A DNA stretch of 63,301 nt, filler included, from Collodictyon triciliatum (Eukaryota), in NCBI GenBank assembly GCA_043381765.1. It is 5 parts of 5 records of this genome, joined end to end, with 100 filler letters (N's around TTAATTAATTAA, not from the genome) between each part and the next. Parts side by side here need not be neighbours in the genome. Positions count along the whole stretch, not along the records: positions 1 to 14,748 come from JBHJMP010001780.1; 4 more parts are not named here. The stretch is one strand, 5' to 3'. Numbering within the stretch: the stretch's first letter is position 1; every line of letters starts with the position of its first letter. Below the pieces are notes generated by a model, which was given only the letters and a program-made list of their open reading frames with translations, did no database searches and was not told where the DNA came from. Of this stretch, positions 1-59,257 are shown piece by piece. The position numbers were made by a program, and so were the translations under genes.

Positions 1-250
1 TTTTATTTATTTTATTTATTTTATTTATTTTATTTATTTTATTTATTTTATTTATTTTATTTATTTTATTTTATTTATTTTATTTTATTTATTTTATTTT
101 ATTTATTTTATTTTATTTATTTATTTTATTTATTTTATTTATTTTATTTATTTTATTTATTTATTTTATTTATTTTATTTATTTTATTTATTTTATTTAT
201 TTTATTTTATTTTATTTTATTTTATTTTATTTTATTTTATTTTATTTTAT
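1..250. repeat. (TTTA/TTTTA)n microsatellite, intronic
   Basis: Tandem TTTA/TTTTA units ending shortly before the AG acceptor at 271-272. Confidence 0.95.
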
Positions 251-272
251 TTCATAATTCACCTTTTAATAG

Positions 273-546
273 GCATGACAAAGCCCTGGGATATTACCGT
301 AAATCACTTGAAATCCGACTGAAATTATACGGAGAAATGCACCCTAACGTTGGGGATACATACTACAATATTGGTAGTCTACTCATGAACCAAAAAAATT
401 ATCAGGAGGCTCTGAACATGTTCCAAAAGGCCAAGGAAGTGTATGAGCACGTTTATGGCGTGGACCACTCTGAGACCAAATATGCCGAAAAGAACCTGCT
501 AAAAGCGCAGAAGAAGCATTCTGGAAGGGAATGCCCAATCCAGTGA
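273..546 (+). CDS. Terminal exon of a TPR-repeat protein (kinesin-light-chain/TPR_12-like) ending in a CaaX box
   Basis: After ttttaatAG the frame reads HDKALGYYRKSLEIRLKLYGEMHPNVGDTYYNIG...YQEALNMFQKAKEVYEHVYGVDHSET, typical long TPR units; ends RECPIQ*. Upstream exons lie outside the window. Confidence 0.8.
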
Positions 547-1337
547 TTCTCTTCCTATCCAATCCACCCCATTAAAACAATTCATTACTTCATCCATACA
601 CTCTCCTTTCCACAAAACAAGTTCAATCCTTCTATCGTGATGGCCACCAAACTGAATGCAGACAGATGATTTTCAGCTTGTTTACGGAGGACTGGATTCT
701 TTCAATTTATTCAATGCAAAGTCAGAGGGCTGGATAAAAAATAATCAGAAATCAACCTAACCTTACCAACCACGTACTTGTAAAGATGGATTTCCATGCT
801 TCTTTGATAATAGATATTTGATAAGCATCACGAACTATAAGGATGATGATGTACTGATCATTAACGCGCCACTGCTATAGTGTGCTTCCATTGGATGTTT
901 TCATTACATTTTTATTTTTTTCCCGGTGATTGCATATTCCGGCATTAGCTTTGTAAAAACAATGCTTTTTCATTCTTTTTTTTTTTTTGCGTAACGGCGG
1001 GCTGTAATCATATGCGCTCCTTTTGTATGTCCTCATTATGTTTTTTTATCACAATCCTAGTTTTCATGTTCTCTGTAAAAATCCTTGACTGATTACACTA
1101 ATCTGGACTGAATCGGCACCTTCCGTAGAGATTTGAGGGCGAAGTACTGAGTGTGTTGTGCGAAGTTGGGTCATTGTTTATCTCAAATGCGATTGGTTTC
1201 GTTTAATCTCGTAAAATTTATCTGTTTGCTAGAGTTAAACTCGAATCGATTCCTTTGTCTTCTCTTTTCTTAACTTTTCCTCCCTTTTATTATTTTTTTC
1301 ATTTTGCTTCACTATGTTTAGTTTTTTGTTCTTTGTT

Positions 1338-1378
<41 letters not shown>

Positions 1379-1544
1379 CAGGTCCGGGGGGGGGTTGTGG
1401 TCGGTATTTGTTCTTTGTTTCTTATCTTACTGTTTTGAGGAATTTTTAGTAACCATACAATATTTCACACTTGCCTCATAACAGGATGTATCCAAGAAAG
1501 AAAAAACAAAGGAAATCCGAATTGACCTAATTATTCTGATACAG

Positions 1545-1690
1545 CCACTTAAGTGTATTATTTACTAGAAGGGAATATACCATCTCTCGATTGGTAAACC
1601 TGGTTCGCCAGTATCCAAGGTCTCACCACTTTTTTCACAAGTGTCGTGTAGTGGTGAAGGCTGCCAGGAAAGACCCGACAGCCTGTTTTT
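1545..1690 (-). ncRNA. Candidate Fanzor omegaRNA (scaffold ~1690-1565 plus flank-derived guide ~1564-1545)
   Basis: Directly 3' of the Fanzor RuvC-III/stop there are four hairpins on the minus strand (1684-1658, 1657-1623, 1611-1600, 1596-1578), with G-U pairs valid only in minus-strand RNA and a GAGA tetraloop. The position matches known TnpB/Fanzor omegaRNAs. Boundaries are inferred. Confidence 0.65.
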
Positions 1691-3778
1691 TTAAAGAAAG
1701 TGTATGCATTCTTTTGGGGTAGGATTAAAAAAACCTATCTTGGGATATCATTAGCGCTGTTTAAGTCCCTTGTCAAGAATACACTGTGTTTGCTTTCTTA
1801 GTGATTGCATTCTTTACATATGAGACATTTATACAACTTTTTTTCGAGTTTGCTTTCAGTATTATATATTCCAGTTCCTTTTTCGCAGTTAAAACACATC
1901 TCGATGTTCTAAATTCATATACACTAACCGTTTCAAAACGTTTGGGTACTATTTTTCGGATTCCTCTTCCGATTGTTGCCATAAAATGGTTCATCTGAGA
2001 TTTTCTGCTCCAGCCTCCATACGCCAGTACAACATCCTTGCCAAATGTCTTTTCGATTCGGTCCATAAACAACGGTTCACTTCTTTTTTTTATCAGCATA
2101 CTGTCTCCATCTCATCTTTCGAAAAGTTCCTTGTTCATAAAATCTGGAAAATTCTACTGGTATCTTGATTTCATAGATACATATATTCGAAATTGTTCAT
2201 AATCGACCGTGCGTGAATTATGTTTACTCAGTTCTGTCTCTAAATCGACTAAAGATACTCTTGATGTCTCAAACTGCTGATTCTCTTCAAAAGTCACGGC
2301 ACCAAAAGAAATAGCACTTTGTAAATCTGTTGCCACGCATATCCCTGAATAATTGTACTCTACTTTTCTTTTTTTCTCGCGCAAGAGTATTGAGTGCCCC
2401 TAAATAACAAGGTTTGTTATCATGTCTTGTTTGGTGTGGCGCGTAACGTAATTTCTTAACTGCCTCATCCACCATGCAAACAAAATTAAACTTGCCTGCG
2501 TCCACTCAAACATTTTTTTTTTGCCGCTAATAAAGATAACTGCCCTTCGGAAAGTTCATCTATATAAACATATTCTTGAGTTTTTTTTTATTATATTTGG
2601 ATTTTGCATTTGAAATACGTTTCTTTTCAAACAATAATAACACCACCAAGCCGTCTGTTTGTATCATGTATTTAAAATTGTTGTCTGTTTGATGAAAACC
2701 CCTCTTCTTGATTTCAAAGAAATCATCCCATAGGGTCTCTTTGCATCCTGATATATTCTTCAGTAATGATGTTTTTCTAGTTAATACTAACAGACCTACC
2801 AAACATGCAGTATCTAGAGTAACATGACATGACATATTGGTAGTTCTTATAGGGATTGGTTGAAGCAGTTTGGCTCCAATGTCCTCAAAAATGAGACTCA
2901 TGTAAATCAGACATGGTATGTACTTCTTCGGATTGACTTTGACGTCATATTCGATACCATTTACAATATCGCTGGGAATAATATGATTCAAATGCGTTAT
3001 AGCCCATTCTTTATATTGTTTCGGTATTTCGAGTTTCTTGAAGGTGGCTTTTCTTATTTAACTTTCGTAACTCTGGCTTTTTAATAGCATCCGTAATATT
3101 CTCATCTCCAGGAACTGTTTGATTTATAAAGAGCATTAAACTTTTTACATAATGACCCTTAATATTTTTATGATAAGCTGCTAGCATTTGCTTCGCCAAG
3201 CACGGTAATACATGAGACAATCCAACCAACGGAATGCGTTCTTCTCGGGACAAAAAGGAATCGAAAATCATTGAGATAAAAAGCCATCATGTCTTTACTC
3301 ATTTCTGGATTTTTAAACTTGCGGGTCTACCTTGTGAAACTACTCCGACTGTCTTTAAAGCATACAAAAAAAAAAACATTTCATCGGTTGTTGGGAGTTG
3401 TTGTGATTTCAATATGTAACATCTTGCAAACAGAAAAGTGTCGGTAACCAAATTATGACATAACAAAACCGCATCGTTGATTTTGTAATAGTCATCCGGA
3501 TTCTTTACAATCGACTTTAGAGATGTTTTCATATTTCGATGGTCTGGTTTTACAGACTTCTGATTATCAGACTCGAGGCGTTTTCTTTTCTTCATCTGAA
3601 AGTCTTTGCTTTACCTTTTCCTCTAGAAAACTACCGAGTTTTCAATTTTAACAAAACTTTAGTCTATTAGTCAATATATATAACTGCATAAAATCAATTT
3701 ATGTAAAATTAAGCATCTACCGAGACTCTCAAAAATGTGCGCATTGTGGCAAACAAACACACAAAGTTTTTTAGGTGA
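1565..3778 (-). mobile_element. Non-autonomous Fanzor-carrying element with Helitron-type termini, copy 1 (2214 bp)
   Basis: Closely similar to 13240-14748, with homology starting at A|TCAC in both copies. The minus-strand 3' end is TACCAATCGAGAGATGGTA(hairpin)-TATTCCCTT-CTAG|T. No TIR seen. The 3' end rests on this single copy. Confidence 0.75.
1735..3595 (-). pseudogene. Fanzor1-type (TnpB-like) RNA-guided RuvC nuclease, ~620 codons, frameshifted
   Basis: Fragments in order: basic N-terminus MKKRKR; IQTDG..V; EYVYIDEL; RuvC-I VDAGKFNFVCMVD; ETELSKHNSRTVD; VVLAYGGWS; RuvC-II VYEFRTSR; Zn ribbon CFNC...CKEC (shifted frames); RuvC-III FLTRDLNSANDI. Confidence 0.88.
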
Positions 3779-4167
3779 TGTATCTTACAAGCTCAATCTG
3801 CGTGCGCCGAGAGGGAGAGAATAAAAAGAGTAAAAAATTGCTTAGTTGGGAGGCTGACACGGAAAAATGGAAAAAAGAAAGAAAAAATGCGCCCAGCACC
3901 CACCAGAAGAAAATTGAATGCAATGAAAAAAAGCGCTTACCTCTCTTGGGTGATGACTAAAAATCAACGTCTTGCGGCTAAGGAATAAATGCTTTTTTAA
4001 TTAGGAGAAGTGATGAAAAAATAGCGTATACGCGACCGTTGAGAAAGATATAAAGTGGAATTTATAATATATTATATCAAATTAACGTAAAAAGGGGTTA
4101 AACCATATATTTTTCTGGAAATGTAATAGAATCAAGCATCAGTTGTGCTACTTTACTAAAATGCCAA

Positions 4168-4788
4168 TTTATTCTTCCTTTCAATTTTGTGCAGGGCGGT
4201 GGAGATGTTAGCTTTGATTCGCTAGCCTTCTTTTGCGTGGACGATACTTGGTGGCCGGGTGGCGGAGAAGTAGTCGGCAATCAGGAATTGCATCCTGCAG
4301 TTTGGCCTGTAGCCTGAGTCTTGTGCTTGCATGAGAGAGACAAGGCGAGGTTGAATCTCTTTCTCAGTCTCTTTCCACATGTCTCTTCTCACAGGTTCTG
4401 AGTAGTAGAGAACGTGCAGGTGGCGAAGAAAGCTATTGAGGAAAGAGATTTGTATGATGTCATTCAACCTATTATCAGGAATGAGTGGCTGGTTATTGGG
4501 TCTCGCTTTGCGTGAGTATATGCGCGCTATCCACATAGTCCATAGCAAATGGCCTCGCGTCACTGCCCAGAATGTTCTTGCATCTGGACGCAGCTGTTGC
4601 AGAGGCCCAAATATCGCCTGGATTGGGCCAACAGCCGCAGCCGTCTTGAGTGCCAGTCGAAGAATCTCACCGGCTATTTCGCGCAGTGTTTGAGCGAAAG
4701 AAATTTTTGTGATGATTTTTTTTTTATTATTCTTCCTTTCAATTTTGTGCAGGATGGTGGAGATGTTGGCTTTGGTTCGCTAGCCATC
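4168..4788 (-). mobile_element. Two tandem 5'-truncated 3' ends of a putative non-LTR (L1/Tx1-like) retrotransposon
   Basis: Open minus frame FAQTLREIAGE...FWAVTRGHLLWTMWIAR...HAKEG* resembles a LINE ORF2 C-terminal W-x-x-W-x-x-R motif. The stop plus ~50 nt tail with an AATAAA-like signal is repeated at 4716-4788, there followed by an A10 tail. Confidence 0.5.
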
Positions 4789-4807
4789 AAATTTTTGTGA
4801 TGATTAA

Positions 4808-5012
4808 CTCAGAGAAATAGATTAAAACCTCGCCTTACTTTTCTCATACAAGCACAAGACCCAGGCTGCAAACTAAATACATCATACATTTATTTGATAA
4901 CAGAGTACCGATCTGCTAACCGGCCACCAAGTATCGCCTATGAAAACGAGGGCTATCAAATCAAAGCCAATATTGTCCATCCATTGCACAAATTGTCAGG
5001 AAGAATAAAAAC
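4808..5012 (+). mobile_element. Diverged inverted third copy of the same 3' end
   Basis: Translates KPRLTFLIQAQDPG...LITEYRSANRPPSIAYENEG versus QPRLVSLMQAQDSG...LIADYFSATRPPSIVHAKEG at 4222-4370 (minus); ends GGAAGAATAAAA like the other copies. Confidence 0.55.
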
Positions 5013-6369
5013 AACGGATTGTCTATCTCTGAAACGCCCTGAGGAATCCAACGCGCCATTTAACTTTCGAGAACGGCCATCACTACAACATGTCATGAGA
5101 GTAATTCATCCGCCTTGCAAGAGAGAGATTTAGTCGTTGCGTAAGCATGACCCATATGTAGGAATATCCAAATAATTAAGGACTATTTTACGCCTAGCCA
5201 TACCTTCCTTTACGCTTCCTCAAGAGAGAAAAATAAAGCATCTCTGTATTTTGAGACACACACCCTCTTCTTACATATGTGTCATAGTAATGCGCACAAG
5301 TAGACGGCATAACTTAAAAAACTGTTAATTAAACAGCATCTTTAAGCCTGTCGCGTCTTTTTTTACTTTTCTTTTTGCATTACTAATTGCCCAACTTGGA
5401 TACTGTTTCTCATATTATTGTTTTGAAAATATGCTCCTCCAGAATATCAATCGTAAACTGTAGTGCATGCTCTAGTTTTAAGTGAGATTAAAATATCACA
5501 ACATATCTGAAATTAATTTATTTAAGAATGAAATTTTATTACTTCCTCTATTCATGAAGATAATCACGAATTGTGTTGTAGTATTATTCACATTTCGAAA
5601 GTAATAGATATCTAGAGTTTCGGTCTCAAATATTGGATATGTATTGTGTCGTCTCTAATTAAATTTTATTATTCTCCCTTTGTCAAAATTACGTTCCTGT
5701 GTATACGCATATTCCTGCAGTGTTTAAGACAAGGAGCTACCTTTGCTCTTATTTTATTTTTGCTCCAGCTAGGATACGTTGATTTATACTATCCACAGAT
5801 TGAATATTGACATTTTTATGAAGCCTCCTGTACCTAGGAGGACCTGTGTATCCAGCTAATAGCCCTATCTCTTGAAAAGAACCATTTCATTACTTTTTCA
5901 TACTTTGTTCTTCAAAATTCATTCTCATATGGCTGTTTCCTAAATTTTCGCTAGTTTAACTAAAGTAGAAGATTCATTAATATTAGTAAAGCTTCCGTAA
6001 TTTTTTTATTAGTTAACCAGGGCAAGGAAGGTTAGGTCAGGTTCACTTTTAAGCGAGTGATCTGAGATATATTGGTATAAAATTTATATATCCCGGAAAG
6101 TATTAACTAAGTGATTTATCACTGGTTTTTTTGAGAGAGATCTCCACCACGAGACTTTTTTGTGGATTCTGTAGTTTTGGGGTCAAGAAACAATCTTCGC
6201 TTCTGCTGCAGGGCTTGATGTCCTCTACTAAGCGTTGGAAGCTCAAGAAACTATGTTTTTAGATAGAAAAGATTCAATACTACAGATAACTAATATAAAA
6301 GAAACGGCAGATGAATACATAATATATTAGCATGCGACAGAGTAAATAAGATTATTTTGCATACTGTGC

Positions 6370-7159
6370 GTTTGTTTTACCTCGTTTTCTGAGATATCCA
6401 GAACCACAAGATTAGTTAGTAGACTTACAGCCTCGGGTAGATTTCTTAACTTTTATTTAGATTATTTGATGAGATTTTATTAATAATTGAGCGGATATGT
6501 ATTAATAATGATACACAGAGATTCTGAGTTTCTGATTTTCTTATATATTAAAAGGTACCTTGTTTTTCGAGACATCCAAATACATAATTGAAGGTATGAA
6601 GCACACAGATTCAGGGAATTCACAAAACTATTAAAAAAAAATTAAATTTTATTATTTGAATTGATCATTACAGTATGATTGAAAAATTACGCAGTTTCTT
6701 CCAAGTGACAAGTATGTCAAGCGCTGCATGAGTGTGATGCTGCTTGGCAATACAGCGAGTTTTAATGCGTACAAACTAAGTGATTCGAATTGGATATGCG
6801 ATTTTCTTGGATTCCACATCAGCTTTGTTACTGACTCAATCTATAAAGGTTTATAATAAGGTATCACAGATGCACCATTTCATGAAAACTGCCTAATTGC
6901 TATATAAAATATTACTCGCTCGCATAATTGTAGTGTCTGAATGCTTCTCTCCCGTAAAGTGTCTTCAGCCACCCAGAAAGGAAGATTGGAGATTCCCCTT
7001 GGAGCTCTTTCAATGTTGCGATGAATACCACTGTTAATTTTAAGAGTTTGAAGACTCTTGAGCGCCGTGAAGTGTGGTGGAAGTTCATGTATCTATGTGC
7101 ATTATGATATAATCACTTTATGGGATTTTATGTTTTCGACTAAGCATGTGAGAATTTTA
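6370..7159 (-). pseudogene. Degenerate LRR-coding continuation downstream of the LRR ORF
   Basis: Isolated minus-strand LRR peptides IHELPPHFTALKSLQTLKIN (~7095-7035), PSIMYLDVSKNK (~6594-6558) and LRNLPEAVSLLTNLVVLDISENE (~6450-6381), separated by stops or possible introns. Confidence 0.5.
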
Positions 7160-7831
7160 TCATAGTAGGAGTACCGGGTTATCCTGAAGATAAAGCTCTT
7201 TCAGATTAGTCAGGTGTGATATTTCTAACGGCAGAGACGATATCGCATTCTTGTGCATCCAGATATTCGATATTCCCACCAAGTTGGATATTTGTTGAGG
7301 TATACGTGATATATAGCAGCAGGCAACACGAAGAACTTTAAGACTCATCAAAAAAGGTATTGGGGACATCGTCGATAATAAATTGAGATTCATGTTGAGC
7401 TGGATGAGATTTGTAAGACAAGATATTGGAGGCAACGAGGATAGCTGATTATCAGTCAAGTCGAGGTATCTAAGACCCGTTAAACACGATATCTCTTCTG
7501 GTATCGATGATAGTCGATTGGAAAGAAGGTTCAGGTGAGAGAGGCGAGTCAAGATCAATATTTCTCGAGGAAATAATGAGAAATCATTTTGATTTATGAA
7601 TAGCGCCGTGAGATTATTTAACCGACTTATTTCTGAAGAAATCGATGGCAGTTGGTTGAATCCGAGAATAAGTCCAGATATGTGGGTTAGGTGAAAGATA
7701 CCAAGGGGAACCGACGTAAAATTTCTGTGAATCAATCGTAGCTCTGTGTGATTACGAAGAGTGGCAATGTCAGGGTCCTCCGTCAGGATGCGAAGTTCTT
7801 CGAGGTGTTCAAGCTCGTTGGGCATGGCCAT
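7160..7831 (-). CDS. Leucine-rich repeat protein (223 aa, ~8 LRRs)
   Basis: Repeated LxxLxLxxNxLxxLPxxI units (e.g. LTGLRYLDLTDNQLSSLPP). May be the intact 5' part of a longer decayed gene. Confidence 0.85.
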   Translation of the reverse strand: MAMPNELEHLEELRILTEDPDIATLRNHTELRLIHRNFTSVPLGIFHLTHISGLILGFNQLPSISSEISRLNNLTALFINQNDFSLFPREILILTRLSHLNLLSNRLSSIPEEISCLTGLRYLDLTDNQLSSLPPISCLTNLIQLNMNLNLLSTMSPIPFLMSLKVLRVACCYISRIPQQISNLVGISNIWMHKNAISSLPLEISHLTNLKELYLQDNPVLLL

Positions 7832-7955
7832 GGAGATGAATTGGAAGGAAACTGGTATGGGCTCCGGGGCTGGCTGAATTAGCGTGTCTTTCGGCTAAGG
7901 TGCTTGCTTGGTGTTTTGTCCTCTGATAGTGCTGTGTGTGAGTATTTTAGAGCGG

Positions 7956-7963
7956 TTTATATA
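7956..7963 (-). promoter_or_regulatory. Putative TATA box of the LRR gene
   Basis: TATATAAA on the minus strand in GC-richer flanks, ~125 nt upstream of the ATG at 7831. Confidence 0.35.
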
Positions 7964-8461
7964 CACCCCTGGGGCTGCGGCACGCATATATAAAATGGAG
8001 GAATGAATATAAGGAGGATGAAATTGAGACGAGATTTAATGTCTGGAAGACTGTGTTCATATAAGTATAATTTATGAGATAGTGTGTGAAATATACAATC
8101 TACTAACTAATTAAATGATTCACAGAACCATTTATTCAAATATAGTGTAATTTCCATAATAACAATACAAATATGGTATGATAAATTATTAGTTTTTGCA
8201 GACACGAAACGCAAGAAGCTTTTTTTTTTATCATAATTCTTTCATTTCGCCAGAGTTTCGGTGGGAGGTTTGGGCGAAGCTCGCTGTAAAAGAAACAATC
8301 AAAAAGCAGGATTAATCAAAGGACTTAGATAATGGTGATTGTAATTAACAAGAAAGAATAAAGAAATAATGCCATGTAATGTTCTTTTACTTTTATATAG
8401 GACACAAGACACAAACACAAGAAAACATTCGGCTGCCCAAAAAAATCGCAAGATCGCCTGA

Positions 8462-9649
8462 ATGAAACTAGATTGCGTGGTATGTCAGGATAGGTACAAA
8501 GATCCGCGCTTTCTTCAATGCGGTCATTCATTCTGCCTTGGGTGCCTTACAAACTGGTTCGCTCATGACAGTGCCTCAGCTTTACCGTGCCCAACATGCC
8601 GTCAGGAAACCAATATACCCGCCGGCGGCTGCTCACATCTCCCCCGAAATTATGCTCTGAATGATGCTTTAGAGTCTCCAGCCTCAGTCTCAGCCCCAGC
8701 CCCAGCTCTAATTCCTAGGCCACCTCCAGTCCATAGACCATCATCTTATCAATACCTTTCTGCGAAGGCAAAGAACCTTACAAAACTGATAAGAAGTCAC
8801 TCATCCCCGACACTCTTTATGTCTGTGATTTTTTCGCTATTCTGTGTCTGCGATAGGGCTGAGGTTATTTTATTTCTGGCTTTGGTTACATCCTTTGCCT
8901 TTCAGATCCGCTCTATCGTGTCCTCCACGACCGGGACAGGGGCCATTGTTCTCATTGAAATATGGATTTTGATTTGCTCCAGCGTGTTGTGGGTCCTACT
9001 TGCCTCCATGCTTATCATCATGGGTGGGAAAACTCTGATGATTACATTCCATTCGAGTGTTTTTTATTCATCAGCATCCGTACTTTCCTTTGGACTAGCG
9101 AAGCTACCTGCAGAGATTTATCGTTCACTTGATGTATTGGCCAGCGGAGGAGAGTACCCCTTGTACATCACCATAAACATAGCGAGTTTAATTTACGAAA
9201 ATATGTGGTATGTATCAAGGTTCGCCATGGAATATGCCCAAATAGCTTTCGAGTTAGTATTCAATGCGCTGGGAACAACTCTTTCTATTCTTTTCGAAAT
9301 TATTTACATCATATCTGCGACTTTGCTCCATATATTTCATGTTGGAATAGTCTATGTTCCGACGATGTTACAAATTCTCCATGATGTGACACTGTACATA
9401 ATATCGCCTCTCTGGTCTTTGTTGGTAACTTTGGTTTCATACACACCAACACTGACGCAATCCTTTTTCAACTTTGTCTTCTACATTTTTGGCCATTTGC
9501 CTTCGCTCGCATATATCGGATTTTCTGGATTTGTGGAATTCATACGATGGATTGTCGGGATGTATAACTTTGTCCTTTCAACATATACAGTAGCAAAGAC
9601 GTTGCTGGTGGCAATATTCTTTTCAGTAATGATTCGCTATGGCAACTAA
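8462..9649 (+). CDS. RING-HC (TRIM-like C3HC4) protein with multi-pass hydrophobic C-terminal region; putative membrane E3 ligase
   Basis: CVVC...DPRFLQCGHSFCLGC...CPTCR...LPRNYAL, then a Pro-rich linker and many hydrophobic segments; intronless 395 aa. Confidence 0.85.
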   Translation: MKLDCVVCQDRYKDPRFLQCGHSFCLGCLTNWFAHDSASALPCPTCRQETNIPAGGCSHLPRNYALNDALESPASVSAPAPALIPRPPPVHRPSSYQYLSAKAKNLTKLIRSHSSPTLFMSVIFSLFCVCDRAEVILFLALVTSFAFQIRSIVSSTTGTGAIVLIEIWILICSSVLWVLLASMLIIMGGKTLMITFHSSVFYSSASVLSFGLAKLPAEIYRSLDVLASGGEYPLYITINIASLIYENMWYVSRFAMEYAQIAFELVFNALGTTLSILFEIIYIISATLLHIFHVGIVYVPTMLQILHDVTLYIISPLWSLLVTLVSYTPTLTQSFFNFVFYIFGHLPSLAYIGFSGFVEFIRWIVGMYNFVLSTYTVAKTLLVAIFFSVMIRYGN

Positions 9650-10335
9650 CTAAGCACCCAATCGCCAGAGGCTTCAGACTGGTTAAATAGTTCAACTTTT
9701 TTGTTATATTTTTCCCTGTGATGCAACCATTCTCACGGCACGCAGCTCTTCTATAGTCCCTCTCTCGCAAAACTGTGAGCTCCATTAAACATGGCGATAC
9801 CCAAGGACGATGAAATAAAAAAAAGAGTTCGAGCTTGGGTGACTGAATGTGTGTTTTCATGTGAAGAAATTGATTTTTACGATCTCATACCCAAAATCAC
9901 TGACGGGCAATAATCAACTGCATTTGTGCGTGTCAATGGCGAGAAGCAACTCCTTTTTTTCCCTCCTTTTTTTTCCTCTCCATTTTTTTTCTTCTTTTAC
10001 TCAAGCAGATCCACGACTTCTTCAGACTCACCATTAGGGTTGTTTGAAACCCCATTCTCAAAGCTCATACTGACCGAGCGAAGGGTCTGTTCGTAAGGAG
10101 TTTTCGAAGAGGTCGCCAGTTTGGTATTTTCGCGTACTTTTGTCCATTCTTTCCGATGAAAACCTGCGGCAGCCGGGTTGCTGTGCATTTTCTTGATTGT
10201 TTCTTATTATTGCGACTCCTTCTCGCTTGCTTTTTTTCTTCAATCAAAGCACCACAAATGCAATATTACCAATCATGCATCCTACCTACGGTTCTGATGC
10301 CCACGGAATTCAATACATGTAAGGAAAGTTAGCTA

Positions 10336-10336
<1 letters not shown>

Positions 10337-10410
<74 letters not shown>
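10337..10410. repeat. poly(A) tract
   Basis: Uninterrupted A run of about 74 nt. Confidence 0.9.
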
Positions 10411-10417
<7 letters not shown>

Positions 10418-10821
10418 GAGCCAGCATCTCAATGGAAATATTTTATCCCGCTTATAACGCCGCAACTTAAAAAAACGAATGTATTTTTCTATTCGCGAAA
10501 GCTTCGGCGTAGCATTTAATAGTGTAATTTTTTTTTTATAATTCTTTATTGGCACAAGTAAAGCAAACCTCAACGAGATACAATATCGTGGATAGATTGT
10601 TTTATACGAAGTGTTAACTGTCTGTATCATTTTGTTAGTCACTAGGCTTTGTGACTTCTTTTCTTGAGTAACATTCATTATACACGAATCACACGTGAAC
10701 GACAAAAATCTTTCATTTTGAAACGTTCACATATTCTTTTACGATTGCTTCGATTGGACGTCTCTTATTGTTATATTGTGCATCTATACCCACTCCCCTT
10801 TTAACACCATTTAGGTTGCCC

Positions 10822-11733
10822 ATGACCACGTCTCCAACAAACTCGCCGTTAGTCTGCAGCGTTTGCCTTGATTCGTACACTGACCCTCGCATGCTTTTAT
10901 GCGGTCATTCATTTTGTTTGCCATGCATCGAAAGGATGCACAAATCCACACGATCCAATTGGCTTCAATGCCCGAACTGTCGATTAATTATCCCAGTGCC
11001 TAAAAACAGTTGCAAAACTTTCCAAAAAAACCTTGCTCTTGTAGGAAATAACCAGGCTATCTTTAATAACAGAAACATATCCATAAGGCCTCTTTTATCA
11101 AACAGATGCTCGAGTGAGCCACGATTTCTTCATGAGATGTCCCTTCCGTCAGACGGGACTGAAAGTACCATCAAAAGCACCGGCGTCTCGGATAATGCTG
11201 CTTCGAATCGTTTGTCTCCATCACAAATTCAACACGAGTACCGCGAGCGCCTTCGCATCCAGTTTGAATATCATGGGATCAGCAGGAGCCCAAGTTCTTT
11301 TCAAGTTCGCGAACGTCAAGTGACACCTGCTGTAAATCGAAGACATGTTGCCCCCGTCGAGATTGTTGATGTTGATAATATTGTAATCAAGCTTCTTTTT
11401 TCTGTGATTGCTCTTACATCGGTGGTATCAAGCTTTTCACAAAGTAACCACGCATTTTGGTCTACGGCTTCATTACTGTTGTATCTAGTTTACTGTTCCT
11501 TCATTGCGATGAGAAGATGGGAAGTCAACCCATCAGCGTCCATATCCGACATCGGAAAAAAGATTTTGGTCTCCTCCGCTCTTTTGTTATGGTTTTCTCT
11601 GGTTCATGTACACAAGGTTCGGAATTACATACATTTCACTTCTCCTGAGAGCATAAAGGAAAGCCTCTGGGCCTTGTTTGGAGGCCATCACCACGCGCTG
11701 GTTGGCCTGTGGCAATACTTGTTCCCTGAGTGA
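10822..11733 (+). CDS. RING-HC protein with C-terminal transmembrane helices; paralogue-like neighbour of 8462-9649
   Basis: ATG at 10822; CSVC...DPRMLLCGHSFCLPC...CPNCR...FQKNLAL; about three hydrophobic helices near the C-terminus. Confidence 0.85.
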   Translation: MTTSPTNSPLVCSVCLDSYTDPRMLLCGHSFCLPCIERMHKSTRSNWLQCPNCRLIIPVPKNSCKTFQKNLALVGNNQAIFNNRNISIRPLLSNRCSSEPRFLHEMSLPSDGTESTIKSTGVSDNAASNRLSPSQIQHEYRERLRIQFEYHGISRSPSSFQVRERQVTPAVNRRHVAPVEIVDVDNIVIKLLFSVIALTSVVSSFSQSNHAFWSTASLLLYLVYCSFIAMRRWEVNPSASISDIGKKILVSSALLLWFSLVHVHKVRNYIHFTSPESIKESLWALFGGHHHALVGLWQYLFPE

Positions 11734-11791
11734 CGTTTCGACAGCGTCTGACACCAGCATGCAATAATTACATGCAATAAAAATTCAGAGT

Positions 11792-11913
11792 CTGTTTGTT
11801 TGTTTGTTTGTTTGTTTGTTTGTTTGTTTGTTTGTTTGTTTGTTTGTTTGTTTGTTTGTTTGTTTGTTTGTTTGTTTGTTTGTTTGTTTGTTTGTTTGTT
11901 TGTTTGTTTGTTT
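11792..11913. repeat. (GTTT)n microsatellite
   Basis: Perfect tetranucleotide tandem array. Confidence 0.95.
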
Positions 11914-13239
11914 GAAAAAAAATCCATGTTGATCTCATCTTTGCAATACGAATAAATGTGGTATCACAGAGACAAACGGAGTTGAGAGGAATAATTAACA
12001 ATAAAATAAAATAAAAAAACACAATAATTAAGAAAATATCTCATTTGCAGGGAAACAAGCACGCTGAAAGAGAAAAGAAGAGCACACTCTCCAGAAAATA
12101 ATATTAAACTGAGCTTCTTTCCTTCTTCTCCCAAATCACTACATTCTAAGCCAGAAAAAAAAAAACACGCAAGCGATCGGAAAGAAGGATCCCGAGAAGG
12201 ACGAGAACACCTACCAGGAGAACCGCCACAGCCCTGCCCCATGGGATGCCTACTGACTGTACGCAAACCGTACGCAAGCCGACAAAGTTGACCCAGAGAG
12301 CGAAAAGGTAACTTGACCGCATCCCTTGCAACACAGGTTATGCACCGAGACACACCGACGACCAGGACGCCGGCTGCCACCGACCCGTGAGTCAACAAAC
12401 GAGTAATAAGACGGAGCGAGCTCTTTGAAACTAATATTAATGATAAAAGAGGAATAAAAAAAGGCCTATCGAGCTCAAGCCATCGACCCACGGGTAGCAA
12501 GAGAACAAGAGACTCCTGAAGAAAGGGTTGATAGGCCTCAAGCTTCCGCTATCGACCGACGGGCAGCAAGATAAGTATGAATATACTGCTCGGTATTAGT
12601 CGCTCTGATTCATTCATCCGTTTCTTTTTTCTTTTTTCTTTTTTCTTTTTCTTTTTCTTTTTCTTTTTCTTTTTCTTTTTCTTTTTCTTTTTCCTTTCTT
12701 TTTCCTTTCTTTTTCCTTTCTTTTTCTTCAGTCTCATTCAGCTTGTAAACGAATAAACTTTATTACAAAGGTTGTGGCGAACTTAGTTTTATCCCTTTCA
12801 AGGTACACATCACTTTTTATACAACGAAAGTGTGCCCATATATAACAGTTTATGGCACAGACAACCATCGAATTAAATCTGGATTGACAAAGGCAGGAGC
12901 TTTGATGAATCCAAGACAGCACCTGAATAATATAATAGTGTGATTAGTATATACAATAAAAAAAATACTTAATAATCTCATTCTATTCACATAACAAATT
13001 TATATTTTATTTTCCATTTGATTCGCATTAAAATTCAAGATTACAAACAAGGTGTTACCTTGGCCCAGACAGAACCCACACCATAAACTTGCCACCAAAC
13101 ATGCATTTCAAAAAAGTATACTATTCACACTTGCGGTGGTAATCATGTTGTTTGGGTCGATATGTTGAATTTCAGTCGCAATGGCTATACGGCTGTCCTT
13201 TCGAACTCGCCGAATGGGCTCTCAGCGTTTTGTCTCAAA

Positions 13240-14748
13240 TCACTTCTAAAAAAAAAAAAAACTTTGTGTGTTTGTTTGCCACAATGCGCACATTGTGAGA
13301 GTCTCGGTAGATGCTTAATTTTACATAAATTGATTTTATGCAGTTTTATTATTTTTATCAAATTGACTGATTGACTGATGTTTTATTAAAATTTAAAACT
13401 CGGTAGTTTTCTAGAGGAAAAGGCAAAACAAAGACTTTCAGATGAAGAAAAGAAAACGCCTCGAGTCTGATAATATAAAGTCTGTAAAACCAGACTATCG
13501 AAATGTGAAAACATCTCTAAAGTCGATTGTAAAGAATCCGGATGACCATGACACAATCAACGATACGGTTTTATTGTGTCATAATTTGGTTACCGACACT
13601 TATCTGTTTGCAAGATGTTACATATTGAAATCACAACAACTCCCAACAACCGATGAAATGTTTTTTTTGTATGCTTTATAGATAGTCGGAGTAGTTTCAC
13701 AAGGTAGACCCGCAAGTTTAAAAATCCAGATATGAGAACCGACATGATGACTTTTTTATCTCAATGATTTTCGATTCCTTTTTGTCCCGAGAAGAACGCA
13801 TTCCGGTCGTTTGGACTGCCTCATGTATTACCGCACTTGGCGAAGCAAATGTTAACAGCTTATCATAATAATATTAAGGAACATTTTGTTAAGAGGTTCC
13901 TGTGCTTTATAAATCAAACAGTTCCTAAAGATAAGAATATTACGGAAGCCATTAAAAAGGCAGGGCTACGAAAGCTAAAAAAAAAAAATAAAGCCATCTT
14001 CAAGAAACTCGAAATACTGGAACAATATAAAGAATGGGCTACAACGCATTTGCATCGTATCATTCCCAGCGATATTGTAAATGGTATCGAATATGACGTC
14101 AAAGTCAATCCGAAGTACATTCCATGTCTGATTTACATGAATTGCATTTTTGAGGACATTGGAACCAAAAACTGTTTCAACCAATCTCTATAAGAACTAC
14201 CAATATGTCATGTCATATTACTCTAGATACTGCATGTTTGGTAGGTCTGTTAGTATTAACTAGAAAAACATCATTACTGAAGAATATATCAGGATGCAAA
14301 GAGACACTGTGGGATGATTTCTTTGAAATCAAGAAGAGGGGTTTTCATCAAAGAGACCACAGTTTTAAATACATGATACAAACAGACGGCTTGGCGGTGT
14401 CATTATTGTTTGTAAAGAAACGTATTTCAAATTCAAAATTCAAATATAATAAGAAAAAACTCAAGAATATGTTTATATAGATGAACTTTCCTAACAGCAG
14501 TTATCTTTATTAGCAACAAAAAAAATAGTTGTAGTGGACGCAGGCAAGTTTAATTTTGTTTGCATGGTGGATGAGGCATTTAAGAAATTACGTTACGCGG
14601 CACACCAAACAAGACATGATAGCAAATCTCTTGAAAATCACAAAATACTCTTGCGCGAGAAAAAAAGAAAAGTAGAGTACAATTATTCAGGGATATGCGT
14701 GGCAACAGATTTACAAAGTGCTATTTCTTTTGGTGCCGTGACTTTTGA
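13240..14748 (+). mobile_element. Fanzor-carrying element, copy 2 (5' two-thirds; truncated by assembly gap)
   Basis: Starts A|TCACTTCTAAAA..ACTTTGTGTGTTTGTTTGCCACAATG and is colinear with the reverse complement of 3778-2287. Confidence 0.85.
13442..14748 (+). pseudogene. Fanzor1-type nuclease, copy 2, frameshifted, 3' part in gap
   Basis: ORF pieces 13442-13681, 13837-14193, 14205-14480 and 14534-14748 match copy 1; includes RuvC-I KIVVVDAGKFNFVCMVD. Confidence 0.85.
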
Positions 14749-14792
14749 NNNNNNNNNNNNNNNNNNNNNNNNNNNNNNNNNNNNNNNNNNNN

Positions 14793-14804
14793 TTAATTAA
14801 TTAA
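14793..14804. other. Artificial scaffold linker TTAATTAATTAA inside N gap (also 29624-29635, 44412-44423, 59202-59213)
   Basis: Identical 12-mer with stops in all frames centred in similar-length N runs; contiguity across these joins is uncertain. Confidence 0.9.
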
Positions 14805-14889
14805 NNNNNNNNNNNNNNNNNNNNNNNNNNNNNNNNNNNNNNNNNNNNAAAAAAAAAAAAAAAAAAAAAATTTTTTTATAATTTTTTGG

Positions 14890-29517: not shown

Positions 29518-29679
29518 AAAAAAAAAAAGAATAAAAAAAAGAATAAAAAAAAGAATAAAAAAAAGAATAAAAAAAAGAANNNNNNNNNNNNNNNNNNNNN
29601 NNNNNNNNNNNNNNNNNNNNNNNTTAATTAATTAANNNNNNNNNNNNNNNNNNNNNNNNNNNNNNNNNNNNNNNNNNNN

Positions 29680-44250: not shown

Positions 44251-44708
44251 ATTTCCCTTTTTATTTTCTCTTTTCTTTTTTTTTTTTTTTACTTGAATCT
44301 TATAAAAGAATATAAAAATAATATTTAAAAAAAAAAAAAAAAAAAAAGGGAGTAATAAAATTTTTTTNNNNNNNNNNNNNNNNNNNNNNNNNNNNNNNNN
44401 NNNNNNNNNNNTTAATTAATTAANNNNNNNNNNNNNNNNNNNNNNNNNNNNNNNNNNNNNNNNNNNNTCCTTTCCTTTCCTTTCCTTTCCTTTCCTTTCC
44501 TTTCCTTTCCTTTCCTTTCCTTTCCTTTCCTTTCCTTTCCTTTCCTTTCCTTTCCTTTCCTTTCCATTCCATTCCATTCCATTCCATTGCTTTTCTTTTT
44601 CTTTTTCTTTTCCTTTCCATTTCATTCCATTGCTTTTTCATTTGTTATATAATATTTCAATAGCATGATAGTTTTTCGCTGTATGACTTCCACTCACACA
44701 AAACCAGT

Positions 44709-47087: not shown

Positions 47088-48240
47088 CCTTTCAAGTAAG
47101 GATTTTGATCTGGAATCACTTTCTTTGAGAAAAAGGCGAGTTTATTAACAAAATGCTGGGGCTGTTACTCAGAGTCTTATATCCAACCCAGATAAGAAAT
47201 CTGTCGATTCAGGAAGGGATATGCCTCTTCGGAAAACTAAATAAAGTCGAAATTTTTTTTAACTCGAGCGCGGCGTTTACATCTTCTAAATGGTATCCAA
47301 CCTTTCGTTGCGCGAGGAATGGACAAGAAACCTTGCAAGTCAACCTATTGTTCGATAATAATCTTAAAAAAAGCATCCATTTTTGTAGTTAAAGACAGTA
47401 AGGCTGCCAAGCTAATCTATGGGGAAAATAATATATTTGAAAGTTGCAGATTTATTTGAGCAGAGATACCTCGTTGGAATCTGNNNNNNNNNNNNNNNNN
47501 NNNNNNNNNNNNNNNNNNNNNNNNNNNNNNNNNNNNNNNNNNNNNNNNNNNNNNNNNNNNNNNNNNNNNNNNNNNNNNNNNNNNNNNNNNNNNNNNNNNN
47601 NNNNNNNNNNNNNNNNNNNNNNNNNNNNNNNNNNNNNNNNNNNNNNNNNNNNNNNNNNNNNNNNNNNNNNNNNNNNNNNNNNNNNNNNNNNNNNNNNNNN
47701 NNNNNNNNNNNNNNNNNNNNNNNNNNNNNNNNNNNNNNNNNNNNNNNNNNNNNNNNNNNNNNNNNNNNNNNNNNNNNNNNNNNNNNNNNNNNNNNNNNNN
47801 NNNNNNNNNNNNNNNNNNNNNNNNNNNNNNNNNNNNNNNNNNNNNNNNNNNNNNNNNNNNNNNNNNNNNNNNNNNNNNNNNNNNNNNNNNNNNNNNNNNN
47901 NNNNNNNNNNNNNNNNNNNNNNNNNNNNNNNNNNNNNNNNNNNNNNNNNNNNNNNNNNNNNNNNNNNNNNNNNNNNNNNNNNNNNNNNNNNNNNNNNAAT
48001 TTTTTTGTCTTGATTACGAAATTATTCAGAGTATGTCTATTTTTACATGGGGTATTGTTTTGCCAAAAGCGTCCATTCAAGGCATATGACAAAAATAATG
48101 GCACTCATTTCAAATACTGTTTCGCGACCATCAGGAACCTCAACTGGAAATCCCTTATTAGAATTTTCCTATTAATTATTTTTCCAAATACAAACGATGC
48201 ATCGGGCATGTAAGACAGCCACTAAGATTCAAATCGAAGA

Positions 48241-59037: not shown

Positions 59038-59257
59038 TCATTTTCAACGAGACATTACATAAAATAAACATAAAATAAACATAAAATAAACATAAAATAA
59101 ACATAAAATAAACATAAAATAAACATAAAATAAACATAAAATAAACATAAAATAAACNNNNNNNNNNNNNNNNNNNNNNNNNNNNNNNNNNNNNNNNNNN
59201 NTTAATTAATTAANNNNNNNNNNNNNNNNNNNNNNNNNNNNNNNNNNNNNNNNNNNN

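What the first reader, a model, noticed from the sequence alone, without database searches (positions are those of the whole stretch)
1545..1690. Strand-specific four-hairpin RNA immediately after the Fanzor stop: candidate omegaRNA scaffold and guide
Seen (minus strand): AGGCTGTCGGG-tcttt-CCTGGCAGCCT (11 bp with 2 G-U); TCACCACT..CACGA-cac-TTGTG..AGTGGTGA (8 bp plus 5 bp with a G-U); CTGG-cgaa-CCAG; TACCAATC-GAGA-GATGGTA (GNRA loop). The wobble pairs work only for the Fanzor-sense transcript, which argues for selection on RNA rather than DNA. Inference: the guide would be the host flank TAAATAATACACTTAAGTGG (1564-1545), targeting the element-free allele.
Basis: partly seen in the sequence, partly recalled or inferred. 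Interest (0 to 1): 0.85.

Follow-up and report, generated by a model that had tools for sequence, protein, structure and literature searches.

The report
Guide-RNA scaffold of a dead Fanzor transposon
The hairpins are real and lie where a Fanzor transposon normally encodes its guide RNA, so this is most likely an ordinary guide-RNA scaffold in a decayed copy of a repeated element, with no RNA evidence yet.

Summary
On the minus strand, 1684-1578 forms three solid hairpins, H1 (11 bp), H2 (8+5 bp) and H4 (7 bp, GAGA loop), plus a weaker third element. The fold beats shuffles only on the Fanzor-sense strand (z -3.1 to -3.9 against -0.8). It is the most structured stretch of the whole element.

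The gene upstream is a Fanzor1 relic broken into about ten reading-frame pieces. The "stop" at 1737 is probably premature, because homology to intact relatives runs on to 1684.

Contigs from four public runs show a multi-copy family whose similarity covers 1561-3822 and nothing outside it. That puts the right end near 1562, and the hairpins fill the last ~123 nt before it.

Intact relatives, many of them on giant-virus contigs, carry a strongly covarying RNA in the same slot. A covariance model of that RNA does not match the window.

I could obtain no other copy's 3' end as sequence, no covariation data and no RNA data.

Verdict: probably the family's omegaRNA scaffold, a new member of a known kind, usable here only in trans. 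The exact guide start is uncertain by a few nucleotides.

The parts
1562..3772 (-). One copy (~2.2 kb) of a multi-copy Fanzor1-only element; left end at 3772, right end near 1562 (uncertain 1572-1555)
   Evidence: Contigs of 4 of 4 runs at 80-99% likeness cover bins 1561-3822 and give zero depth in 1300-1560 and 3823-3900. The second window copy stops matching at 3772. Two X6 contigs run on unlike after 3772.
1738..3595 (-). Disrupted Fanzor1 coding region: about ten frame pieces, in-frame TAA at 1800-1798
   Evidence: Three-frame translation and ORF list. Pieces hit PpFz1 9cf0 (E 4.4e-4 and 1.1e-3), SpuFz1 8gkh (E 1.6e-3) and, weakly, GtFz1 9cer (E 0.091). tblastn of the 634-aa relative P0003 covers its residues 1-608 across three frames.
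1735..1737 (-). TAG taken as the Fanzor stop; probably a premature stop
   Evidence: Alignment to P0003 and P0024 reads through it to ...FFKKT at 1698-1684.
1658..1684 (-). Hairpin H1: 11 bp with 2 G-U, loop UCUUU
1623..1657 (-). Hairpin H2: 8 bp outer and 5 bp inner helix (1 G-U), loop CAC, A5 internal loop
1597..1622 (-).
   Evidence: 1609 differs in every other-copy contig that covers it
1578..1596 (-). Hairpin H4: 7 bp with one bulge, GAGA loop
1562..1577 (-). Unpaired 3' tail UAUUCCCUUCUAGUAA up to the right end; UCCCUU can pair with AAGGGA inside the RuvC-III codons in the longer fold
1540..1561 (-). Flank just past the right end: candidate guide (inferred; start uncertain by up to ~7 nt)
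   Evidence: Zero depth from other copies in bin 1474-1560. One X1 contig shares TTCTAGTAA and then diverges, though a 1-nt gap would let ATAATA match too (table 7).
3773..3777 (-). Left flank CACCT: candidate TAM position (inferred only)
   Evidence: Left flanks end in ...CACCT (this copy)...CTTCT (copy 2) and ...CTTCT(A) (X6 contigs).
13256..14748 (+). Second, inverted copy of the element's 5' two-thirds, cut by the end of its contig piece; its 3' end is not present
   Evidence: 90.9% identity over 1505 columns. 106 substitutions and 10 separate indels against copy 1.

Best explanation
1684-1562 (minus strand) is the omegaRNA scaffold segment of a ~2.2-kb Fanzor1-only transposable element.

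By analogy with TnpB and Fanzor systems, a sense transcript runs through the end of the nuclease gene, across the scaffold and a further 15-21 nt into the flank. Fanzor protein binds the hairpins. The flank-derived 3' extension acts as guide and directs cleavage of the TAM-adjacent, element-free version of this site, which favours retention or re-copying of the element.

Shown here:
- the hairpins and their strand bias;
- the Fanzor homology of the upstream gene;
- the element's ends and its multi-copy status;
- a covarying RNA in the same slot in relatives.

Inferred: transcription, protein binding, processing, guide length and TAM.

In this copy the nuclease gene is dead, so the RNA could act only with protein from an intact copy elsewhere. 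Otherwise it is itself a relic.
For: 1. Position. The hairpins fill the last ~123 nt before the point where similarity among copies ends: zero depth beyond 1560 in 4 of 4 runs. They begin right after the last protein motif shared with relatives...FFKKT.

2. Fold.
- Sense RNA z is -3.12, -3.38 and -3.87 for 156, 129 and 239 nt, with 1, 1 and 0 of 200 shuffles as stable. Antisense z is -0.79.
- It is the most structured of 198 windows across the element.
- GC is 0.50 here against 0.35 for the element.

3. Three G-U pairs become A-C mismatches on the other strand.

4. Relatives.
- 54 of 80 unique downstream regions share a conserved block that overlaps the stop and ends sharply at ...AAGGTGTAAA, followed by unrelated sequence.
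- A model built from 7 of them finds 45 of 80 metagenome loci, always sense and always at the ORF end.
- 27 of 30 pairs show compensatory change, and 85% of cells pair against 45-57% when slid.

5. Two X2 contigs carry internal deletions (1682 to 1933 and 1692 to 1930) that keep the hairpin region. This resembles the Fanzor-less 'ghost loci' of S. punctatus (PMC10432273, passages).

6. Published Fanzor omegaRNAs lie between the ORF end and the right end and extend 14-21 nt beyond it (PMC10432273, PMC10530073: passages). Their length is 75-150 nt with 2-4 stem-loops (PMC11423790, sections 4 and 5).
Against: - No sequence of another copy's 3' end could be obtained, so conservation and covariation of H1, H2 and H4 are untested.
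- The relatives' omegaRNA model gives no match at 1545-1700 even at E <= 10 with filters off. It also gives none at E <= 0.001 when the window is searched together with the loci. Rfam 15 has no match there.
- The topology differs. Here there are four hairpins in a row. The relatives have nested long-range helices.
- H1 has 11 bp, not the 7 bp that SL1 shows in the three solved Fz1 complexes (PMC11423790, section 5).
- As DNA the hairpins are also significant, z -3.01.
- The sense frame is open across the whole region, so part of it may simply be former coding sequence.
- The nuclease gene beside it is dead.
Confidence: 0.68

Rival explanations
1. The hairpins are a DNA-level end signal. They would be subterminal palindromes recognised by whatever transposase moves the element, as with the right-end hairpins of IS200/IS605, and not primarily an RNA. 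This is not exclusive of the main reading, since in TnpB elements one sequence serves both roles.
For: The hairpins sit at the very end of the repeated unit and are kept in deletion derivatives. Folded as DNA they still beat shuffles, z -3.01 sense and -1.94 antisense.
Against: - No transposase gene and no terminal inverted repeat were found in 1300-3900.
- No comparable structure stands out at the left end on the sense strand.
- The strand bias is larger as RNA than as DNA.
- Relatives show RNA-type covariation, including G-U intermediates, in the same slot.
Confidence: 0.14
2. The region is the former C-terminal coding tail of the Fanzor protein, or neutral filler, and its hairpins are incidental.
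For: - The sense frame is open from 1734 to the TAA at 1560-1558.
- Homology to relatives reads through the TAG.
- Relatives have C-terminal tails of very different length after the shared motif.
- One relative, L003, has its stop at the right end.
Against: - Forty-one stop-free codons in 50% GC sequence is not remarkable.
- The fold is the strongest in the element and is strand-specific.
- In the relatives, the tail codons are themselves the 5' part of a covarying RNA, so a coding tail and a scaffold coexist there.
Confidence: 0.1
3. It is a generic 3'-UTR element, such as a terminator, a stability element or a polyadenylation context, unrelated to guidance.
For: It lies downstream of the present stop codon and is structured.
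Against: It runs exactly to the element's end. No Rfam cis-regulatory family matches there. The relatives' RNA in this slot ends at the transposon end, with variable sequence after it.
Confidence: 0.05

Closest known systems
Fanzor1 omegaRNAs of Spizellomyces punctatus, Parasitella parasitica and Guillardia theta (Saito 2023, PMC10432273; Xu 2024, PMC11423790)
   Same: - The nuclease homology is to these proteins.
- The RNA lies between the ORF end and the transposon right end, on the sense strand, with the guide read from the flank.
- Scaffold size, 75-150 nt with 2-4 stem-loops, brackets the ~123 nt and four hairpins seen here.
- GtFz1 also has four stem-loops.
- S. punctatus has Fanzor-less loci that keep the RNA.
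   Different: - Protein similarity is remote (E about 1e-3 per piece).
- SL1 is 7 bp in all three solved complexes, whereas H1 is 11 bp here.
- There is no RNA or binding evidence here.
The conserved 3' RNA of the nearest protein relatives found here: ~620-700-aa Fanzor genes in freshwater and marine metagenome contigs and giant-virus MAG contigs (L001-L160)
   Same: - Closest proteins: up to 60% identity over 63 aa.
- The RNA occupies the end of the ORF up to the right end, on the sense strand, and overlaps the C-terminal tail codons.
- It is multi-helix.
- Sequence becomes unrelated right after the end.
   Different: - There is no detectable sequence or covariance-model similarity.
- The relatives' fold is nested, with a long closing helix around an inner hairpin, whereas the window has consecutive hairpins.
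- Their terminal motif ...UUUAAAU...AAGGUGUAAA is absent here.
TnpB omegaRNA (reRNA) of IS200/IS605 elements and viral or animal Fanzor 'fRNAs' (Jiang 2023, PMC10530073)
   Same: The logic is the same: a scaffold at the right end, a guide taken from the flank, and a target that is the vacant site next to a TAM. The abstract of bioRxiv 10.1101/2023.11.20.567912, seen in the search listing, states the homing role for TnpB.
   Different: This is a eukaryotic host with no TnpA gene in the unit. TAM, processing and guide length are unknown here.

Membership tests
Fanzor1 / TnpB-type RuvC nuclease (the gene beside the finding) | Sequence homology to characterised Fanzor1 proteins over the whole length | tested here: met
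   Pieces hit PpFz1 9cf0 at collinear places (741-868 and 1111-1181) and SpuFz1 8gkh. 363 library proteins have E <= 1e-3. P0003 residues 1-608 of 634 are covered. Relatives carry PF07282, the Cas12f1-like TNB domain, though only 2 of the 6 scanned reach its cut-off.
Fanzor1 / TnpB-type RuvC nuclease (the gene beside the finding) | RuvC D...E...D motifs and a CxxC...CxxC zinc ribbon | tested here: met
   VDAGK, EFRTS, CFNC...CLIC and TRDLNSA are present in the frame pieces and match the family consensus GxDPGK, ExRTSK, CxxC and RDxNxAxNI.
Fanzor1 / TnpB-type RuvC nuclease (the gene beside the finding) | Intact open reading frame | tested here: not met
   About ten frame pieces, with an in-frame TAA at 1800-1798 and TAG at 1737-1735. 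Other copies differ at several of the homopolymer indel sites; for example, one base at 3252 is absent from all X1, X4 and X6 contigs covering it.
omegaRNA (functional class) | Encoded at or overlapping the 3' end of the nuclease ORF, on its strand, and running to the transposon right end | tested here: met
   The hairpins span 1684-1578 and the tail reaches 1562. Coverage by other copies ends by 1561. Protein homology ends at 1684.
omegaRNA (functional class) | Scaffold conserved among copies while the sequence after the right end varies | tested here: inconclusive
   The region is part of the repeated unit at normal depth and the flank is not. Only 40 of 684 differences were displayed, and no other copy's sequence could be fetched.
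omegaRNA (functional class) | Stable secondary structure supported by covariation | tested here: inconclusive
   Stability and strand bias are met. Covariation cannot be tested with a single sequence.
omegaRNA (functional class) | Discrete transcript with a 14-21-nt 3' guide extension that co-purifies with the nuclease | not testable with these tools
   No listed run is on record as RNA; X2's RNA label is only a guess.
The covarying 3' RNA family of the nearest Fanzor relatives (model R1) | A significant match to the covariance model | tested here: not met
   No match at 1545-1700 at E <= 10 with filters off. No window match at E <= 0.001, while 45 of 80 loci match.
Any Rfam 15 family | A match at or near the gathering score | tested here: not met
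   Only 3 weak matches in 1-6000 at E <= 10, none of them in 1545-1700.
Solved Fz1 omegaRNAs (Xu 2024) | First stem-loop of seven base pairs | tested here: not met
   H1 has 11 bp, against 7 bp in GtFz1, SpuFz1 and PpFz1 (PMC11423790, section 5). This is a description of three cases and not a formal definition. The true first stem here could lie upstream.

The most novel reading that the evidence does not exclude
This eukaryotic Fanzor1 family may have replaced its omegaRNA scaffold. Its nearest protein relatives, many on giant-virus contigs, share one covarying, nested RNA fold that a 7-sequence model recognises across relatives of 38-60% identity. This element carries, in the same slot, four consecutive GC-rich hairpins with no detectable relationship to that fold. 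If intact copies exist in the organism behind run X2, they would give a Fanzor with a distinct, simple, modular scaffold, and a case of virus-host related nucleases using unrelated guide-RNA scaffolds.
Probability: 0.3. Interest if true: 0.45.

Novelty: new member of a known kind. Interest (0 to 1): 0.3.

Why it matters
Fanzor-omegaRNA pairs are the eukaryotic counterparts of TnpB and Cas12 and are being developed as compact genome editors, so each new scaffold adds to the known range of RNA architectures.

This case adds a candidate scaffold for an uncharacterised, highly repeated Fanzor1 family. That family is related to giant-virus Fanzors but has a different-looking RNA. The copy in hand is dead and nothing is shown at the RNA level. 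Its present value is as a pointer to the family, not as a result in itself.

Tried and rejected
- Whole-genome search: no genome is held for this window.
- Pfam on the seven frame pieces: nothing above cut-off.
- Word-based protein search with the 165-aa piece (longer proteins) and with the 58-aa sense frame over the hairpins: none found.
- Sequencing runs: no RNA holder is listed. All holders share only a small part of the sampled words, 0.05-0.12.
- Laying four runs gave boundaries and a few differences but no sequences. Most rows were not displayed: 644 differences, 120 indels, 145 loose ends and 513 pieces. The flanks had no cover, so neither this locus nor its empty allele is in those runs.
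- Terminal inverted repeats: none found apart from low-complexity runs.
- tRNA-like origin: ARAGORN finds none in 1-14748.
- blastn and nhmmer of the hairpin region against 160 related loci: only chance-level 12-19-nt matches.
- Exact 19-mer scan: 0 matches in viral contigs and 6 in bacterial MAGs. The bacterial matches extend no further than 19-25 nt and are chance.
- RNAalifold on the mixed 42-sequence alignment gave no pairs because subfamilies were misaligned. Subfamily folds did work.
- I first read the matching length of the relatives' model (125-127 nt) and of the window's hairpin region (123 nt) as support. I rejected this. The model's 5' limit was set by my own 125-nt cut, and the relatives have a further helix upstream over the RPxxF codons.
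- Host lineage from a phosphatase gene: eukaryotic, but not resolved further.

Full report
**What the window is.** The 63,301-base window is five contig pieces joined by N44-TTAATTAATTAA-N44 linkers. The finding lies in the first piece (1-14748). The host genes are eukaryotic: WD40, RING, LRR, DEK_C and an EF-hand phosphatase.

**The observation.** All four hairpins are present at the stated coordinates on the minus strand.
- H1 is 1684-1658: 11 bp with 2 G-U.
- H2 is 1657-1623: 8+5 bp with 1 G-U.
- H3 is 1611-1600: 4 bp.
- H4 is 1596-1578: 7 bp with one bulge and a GAGA loop.

As RNA, the sense strand folds far better than dinucleotide shuffles.
- 156 nt gives z -3.12, with 1 of 200 shuffles as stable.
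- 129 nt gives z -3.38, 1 of 200.
- 239 nt gives z -3.87, 0 of 200.
- The antisense strand gives z -0.79, 38 of 200.

In a scan of 198 windows of 130 nt over 1300-3900 on both strands, the two most structured are minus-strand 1600-1729 and 1575-1704, at z -3.82 and -3.53. GC is 0.50 in 1578-1684 against 0.35 for the element.

Two caveats apply. The minimum-energy fold replaces H3 by a 7-bp helix, 1622-1615 with 1603-1597. With DNA parameters the hairpins are still significant, z -3.01 sense and -1.94 antisense.

**The neighbouring gene.** The region 3595-1738 on the minus strand encodes a Fanzor1 homologue in about ten frame pieces. There are in-frame stops TAA at 1800-1798 and TAG at 1737-1735.
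- Pfam sees nothing in the separate pieces.
- Two pieces hit Parasitella parasitica Fanzor1 (9cf0) at collinear positions, with E 4.4e-4 and 1.1e-3. One of them also hits Spizellomyces punctatus Fanzor1 (8gkh, E 1.6e-3) and, weakly, Guillardia theta Fz1 (E 0.091).
- A full HMMER scan with the 112-aa C-terminal piece finds 363 proteins at E <= 1e-3, many of them 590-700 aa.
- Of 6 full-length relatives scanned, 5 list PF07282 (Cas12f1-like TNB) and 2 reach its cut-off.
- tblastn of the 634-aa relative P0003 covers its residues 1-608 over three frames.
- The catalytic and zinc-ribbon motifs are recognisable.
- A second, inverted copy at 13256-14748 is 90.9% identical and has its own indels. It is cut by the contig end before its 3' part.

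**The stop codon.** Alignment with P0003 and P0024 reads through the TAG at 1737. The stretch ...TRDLNSANDIPR*VFLILPQKNAYTFFKKT lines up with ...TRDLNSAQNIRQLALDWLNERKRPSVFRRT. The TAG therefore looks premature, and protein homology ends at 1684, the first base of H1. The same frame stays open through all the hairpins to a TAA at 1560-1558.

In the relatives, the C-terminal tail after this motif is encoded by the 5' part of their conserved RNA. In one locus, L003, the stop sits at the right end. "Immediately after the Fanzor stop" should therefore read [quoted passage not shown].

**The element's ends and copy number.** No run holds more than 12% of the sampled words, and none is on record as RNA. 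Four runs were laid at 80% likeness or more. X1 placed 149 contigs on the stretch, X2 345, X4 11 and X6 21.
- All cover 1561-3822. All have zero depth in 1300-1560 and 3823-3900.
- The left end at 3772 agrees with the second window copy and with two X6 contigs that run on unlike after 3772.
- At the right end, one X1 contig shares TTCTAGTAA (1570-1562) and then diverges. A 1-nt gap would let ATAATA (to 1555) match too. The right end is therefore about 1562, with an uncertainty of 1572-1555.
- No terminal inverted repeats and no transposase gene were found.

**What the other copies say about the hairpins.** Very little could be seen, because only 40 of 684 differences were displayed.
- The single displayed difference inside the region is 1609. 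The window has G on the sense strand, and every covering contig has A (X1 5 of 5, X2 8 of 8, X6 1 of 1).
- Two X2 contigs carry internal deletions, 1682 to 1933 and 1692 to 1930. These remove the end of the ORF but keep the hairpin region.
- This recalls the Fanzor-less "ghost loci" of S. punctatus that retain the omegaRNA (PMC10432273, passages).
- Other copies also differ from the window at several frameshifting homopolymer sites. For example, one base at 3252 is absent from all X1, X4 and X6 contigs covering it. Less decayed copies therefore probably exist.

**Relatives and their RNA.** Degenerate-pattern scans with a 23-row protein alignment gave 352 confirmed metagenome stretches and 376 viral ones. 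The best identity is 60% over 63 aa, and many loci lie on giant-virus MAG contigs. No close copy of the window's own family was obtained.
- 100 loci have an ORF of 550 aa or more and enough downstream sequence. They give 80 unique downstream regions.
- Of these, 54 form one similarity cluster, 20 form a second, and 6 stand alone.
- The large cluster shares a conserved block that overlaps the stop codon and ends sharply at ...AAGGTGTAAA, after which sequences are unrelated.
- A covariance model built from 7 of them finds 45 of the 80 metagenome loci at E <= 1e-3, all on the sense strand at the ORF end.
- On that alignment, which is fitted to the model, 27 of 30 pairs show changes on both sides. 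85.1% of cells pair, against 65.4% when shuffled and 44.9-56.7% when slid.

This Fanzor clade therefore carries a well-supported structured RNA in exactly the slot where the window has its hairpins.

**The membership test fails.** The same model gives no match at 1545-1700, even at E <= 10 with filters off, and none in the window when it is searched with the loci. Rfam 15 has nothing there. blastn and nhmmer find only chance words.

The topologies also differ. The relatives have nested, long-range helices, whereas the window has consecutive hairpins. The longer fold does add a 6-bp closing helix between AAGGGA in the RuvC-III codons and UCCCUU in the tail.

The similar lengths, 123 nt here and 125-127 nt in the model, are not evidence. 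My own cut set the model's 5' limit, and the relatives have a further helix upstream.

**Comparison with the literature.**
- Viral and animal Fanzors co-purify with RNAs from the 3' non-coding region abutting the right end, with 21-nt guides used in assays (PMC10530073, passages).
- Fz1 omegaRNAs range from 75 to 150 nt with two to four stem-loops. SL1 has 7 bp in all three solved complexes, and the region beyond SL1 is described as poorly constrained (PMC11423790, sections 4 and 5).
- The window's ~123 nt and four hairpins fit this range. H1's 11 bp does not match the 7-bp SL1.
- Supplementary tables with omegaRNA sequences could not be read.

**Conclusion.** The most likely reading (about 0.68) is that 1684-1562 is the omegaRNA scaffold segment of a repeated Fanzor1-only element, with the flank from about 1561 downward as the guide template.

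In this copy the nuclease is dead, so the RNA is either a relic or works in trans. The DNA-level end-signal reading (about 0.14) is not exclusive of this. An incidental structure in a former coding tail (about 0.10) and a generic 3'-UTR element (about 0.05) are less likely.

It is a new member of a known kind. The boldest reading not excluded is a scaffold replacement relative to its giant-virus-borne relatives.

Noticed in passing
window 14749-14848, 29580-29679, 44368-44467, 59158-59257; also 47484-47997: The window is not one contiguous sequence. Four N44-TTAATTAATTAA-N44 linkers join five pieces of about 14.7 kb, and there is a separate 514-N gap.
   Followed up: partly
window 1325-1422: A perfect 16-bp direct repeat, AGAAACAAAGAACAAA on the minus strand (1422-1407 and 1340-1325), flanks 28 nt plus a run of 38 A. 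This looks like a tiny retroposed RNA 3' end with a target-site duplication, about 140 nt beyond the element's right end.
   Followed up: partly
window 13256-14748 (+): A second, inverted copy of the Fanzor element lies about 9.5 kb from the first. It is 90.9% identical, has its own frameshifts, and is cut off by the contig end.
   Followed up: yes
L001-L160 (for example L001 3377-3503, L064 2406-2504): A large family of intact ~620-700-aa Fanzor genes, many on giant-virus MAG contigs, carries a conserved, strongly covarying ~100-160-nt RNA. The RNA overlaps the C-terminal codons and ends at ...AAGGTGTAAA. In the closest subfamily the protein tail ...EGLTITPAGEKVGQSVDFTVGKATVS is encoded by the RNA's first helices.
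   Followed up: partly
window 1561-3822 against other copies: Of the 40 best-supported differences between this copy and contigs of other copies, 26 have window C where the others read T on the plus strand, which is G against A on the Fanzor-sense strand. G>A is also the commonest class between the two window copies, 22 of 106. The direction and cause are unknown.
   Followed up: no
window 3773-3780 and 13244-13255; window 1562-1572: Left flanks of three copies end in ...CACCT...CTTCT and ...CTTCT(A) before the element's A-run, and the right end reads ...CCCTTCTAGTAA. A shared CTTCT(A) at the left flank and near the right end might mark the target or cleavage motif or the TAM.
   Followed up: no
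window 1-250: A long (ATAAA)n/(ATAAAA)n-type microsatellite runs off the start of the window, next to a TPR-like open frame.
   Followed up: no
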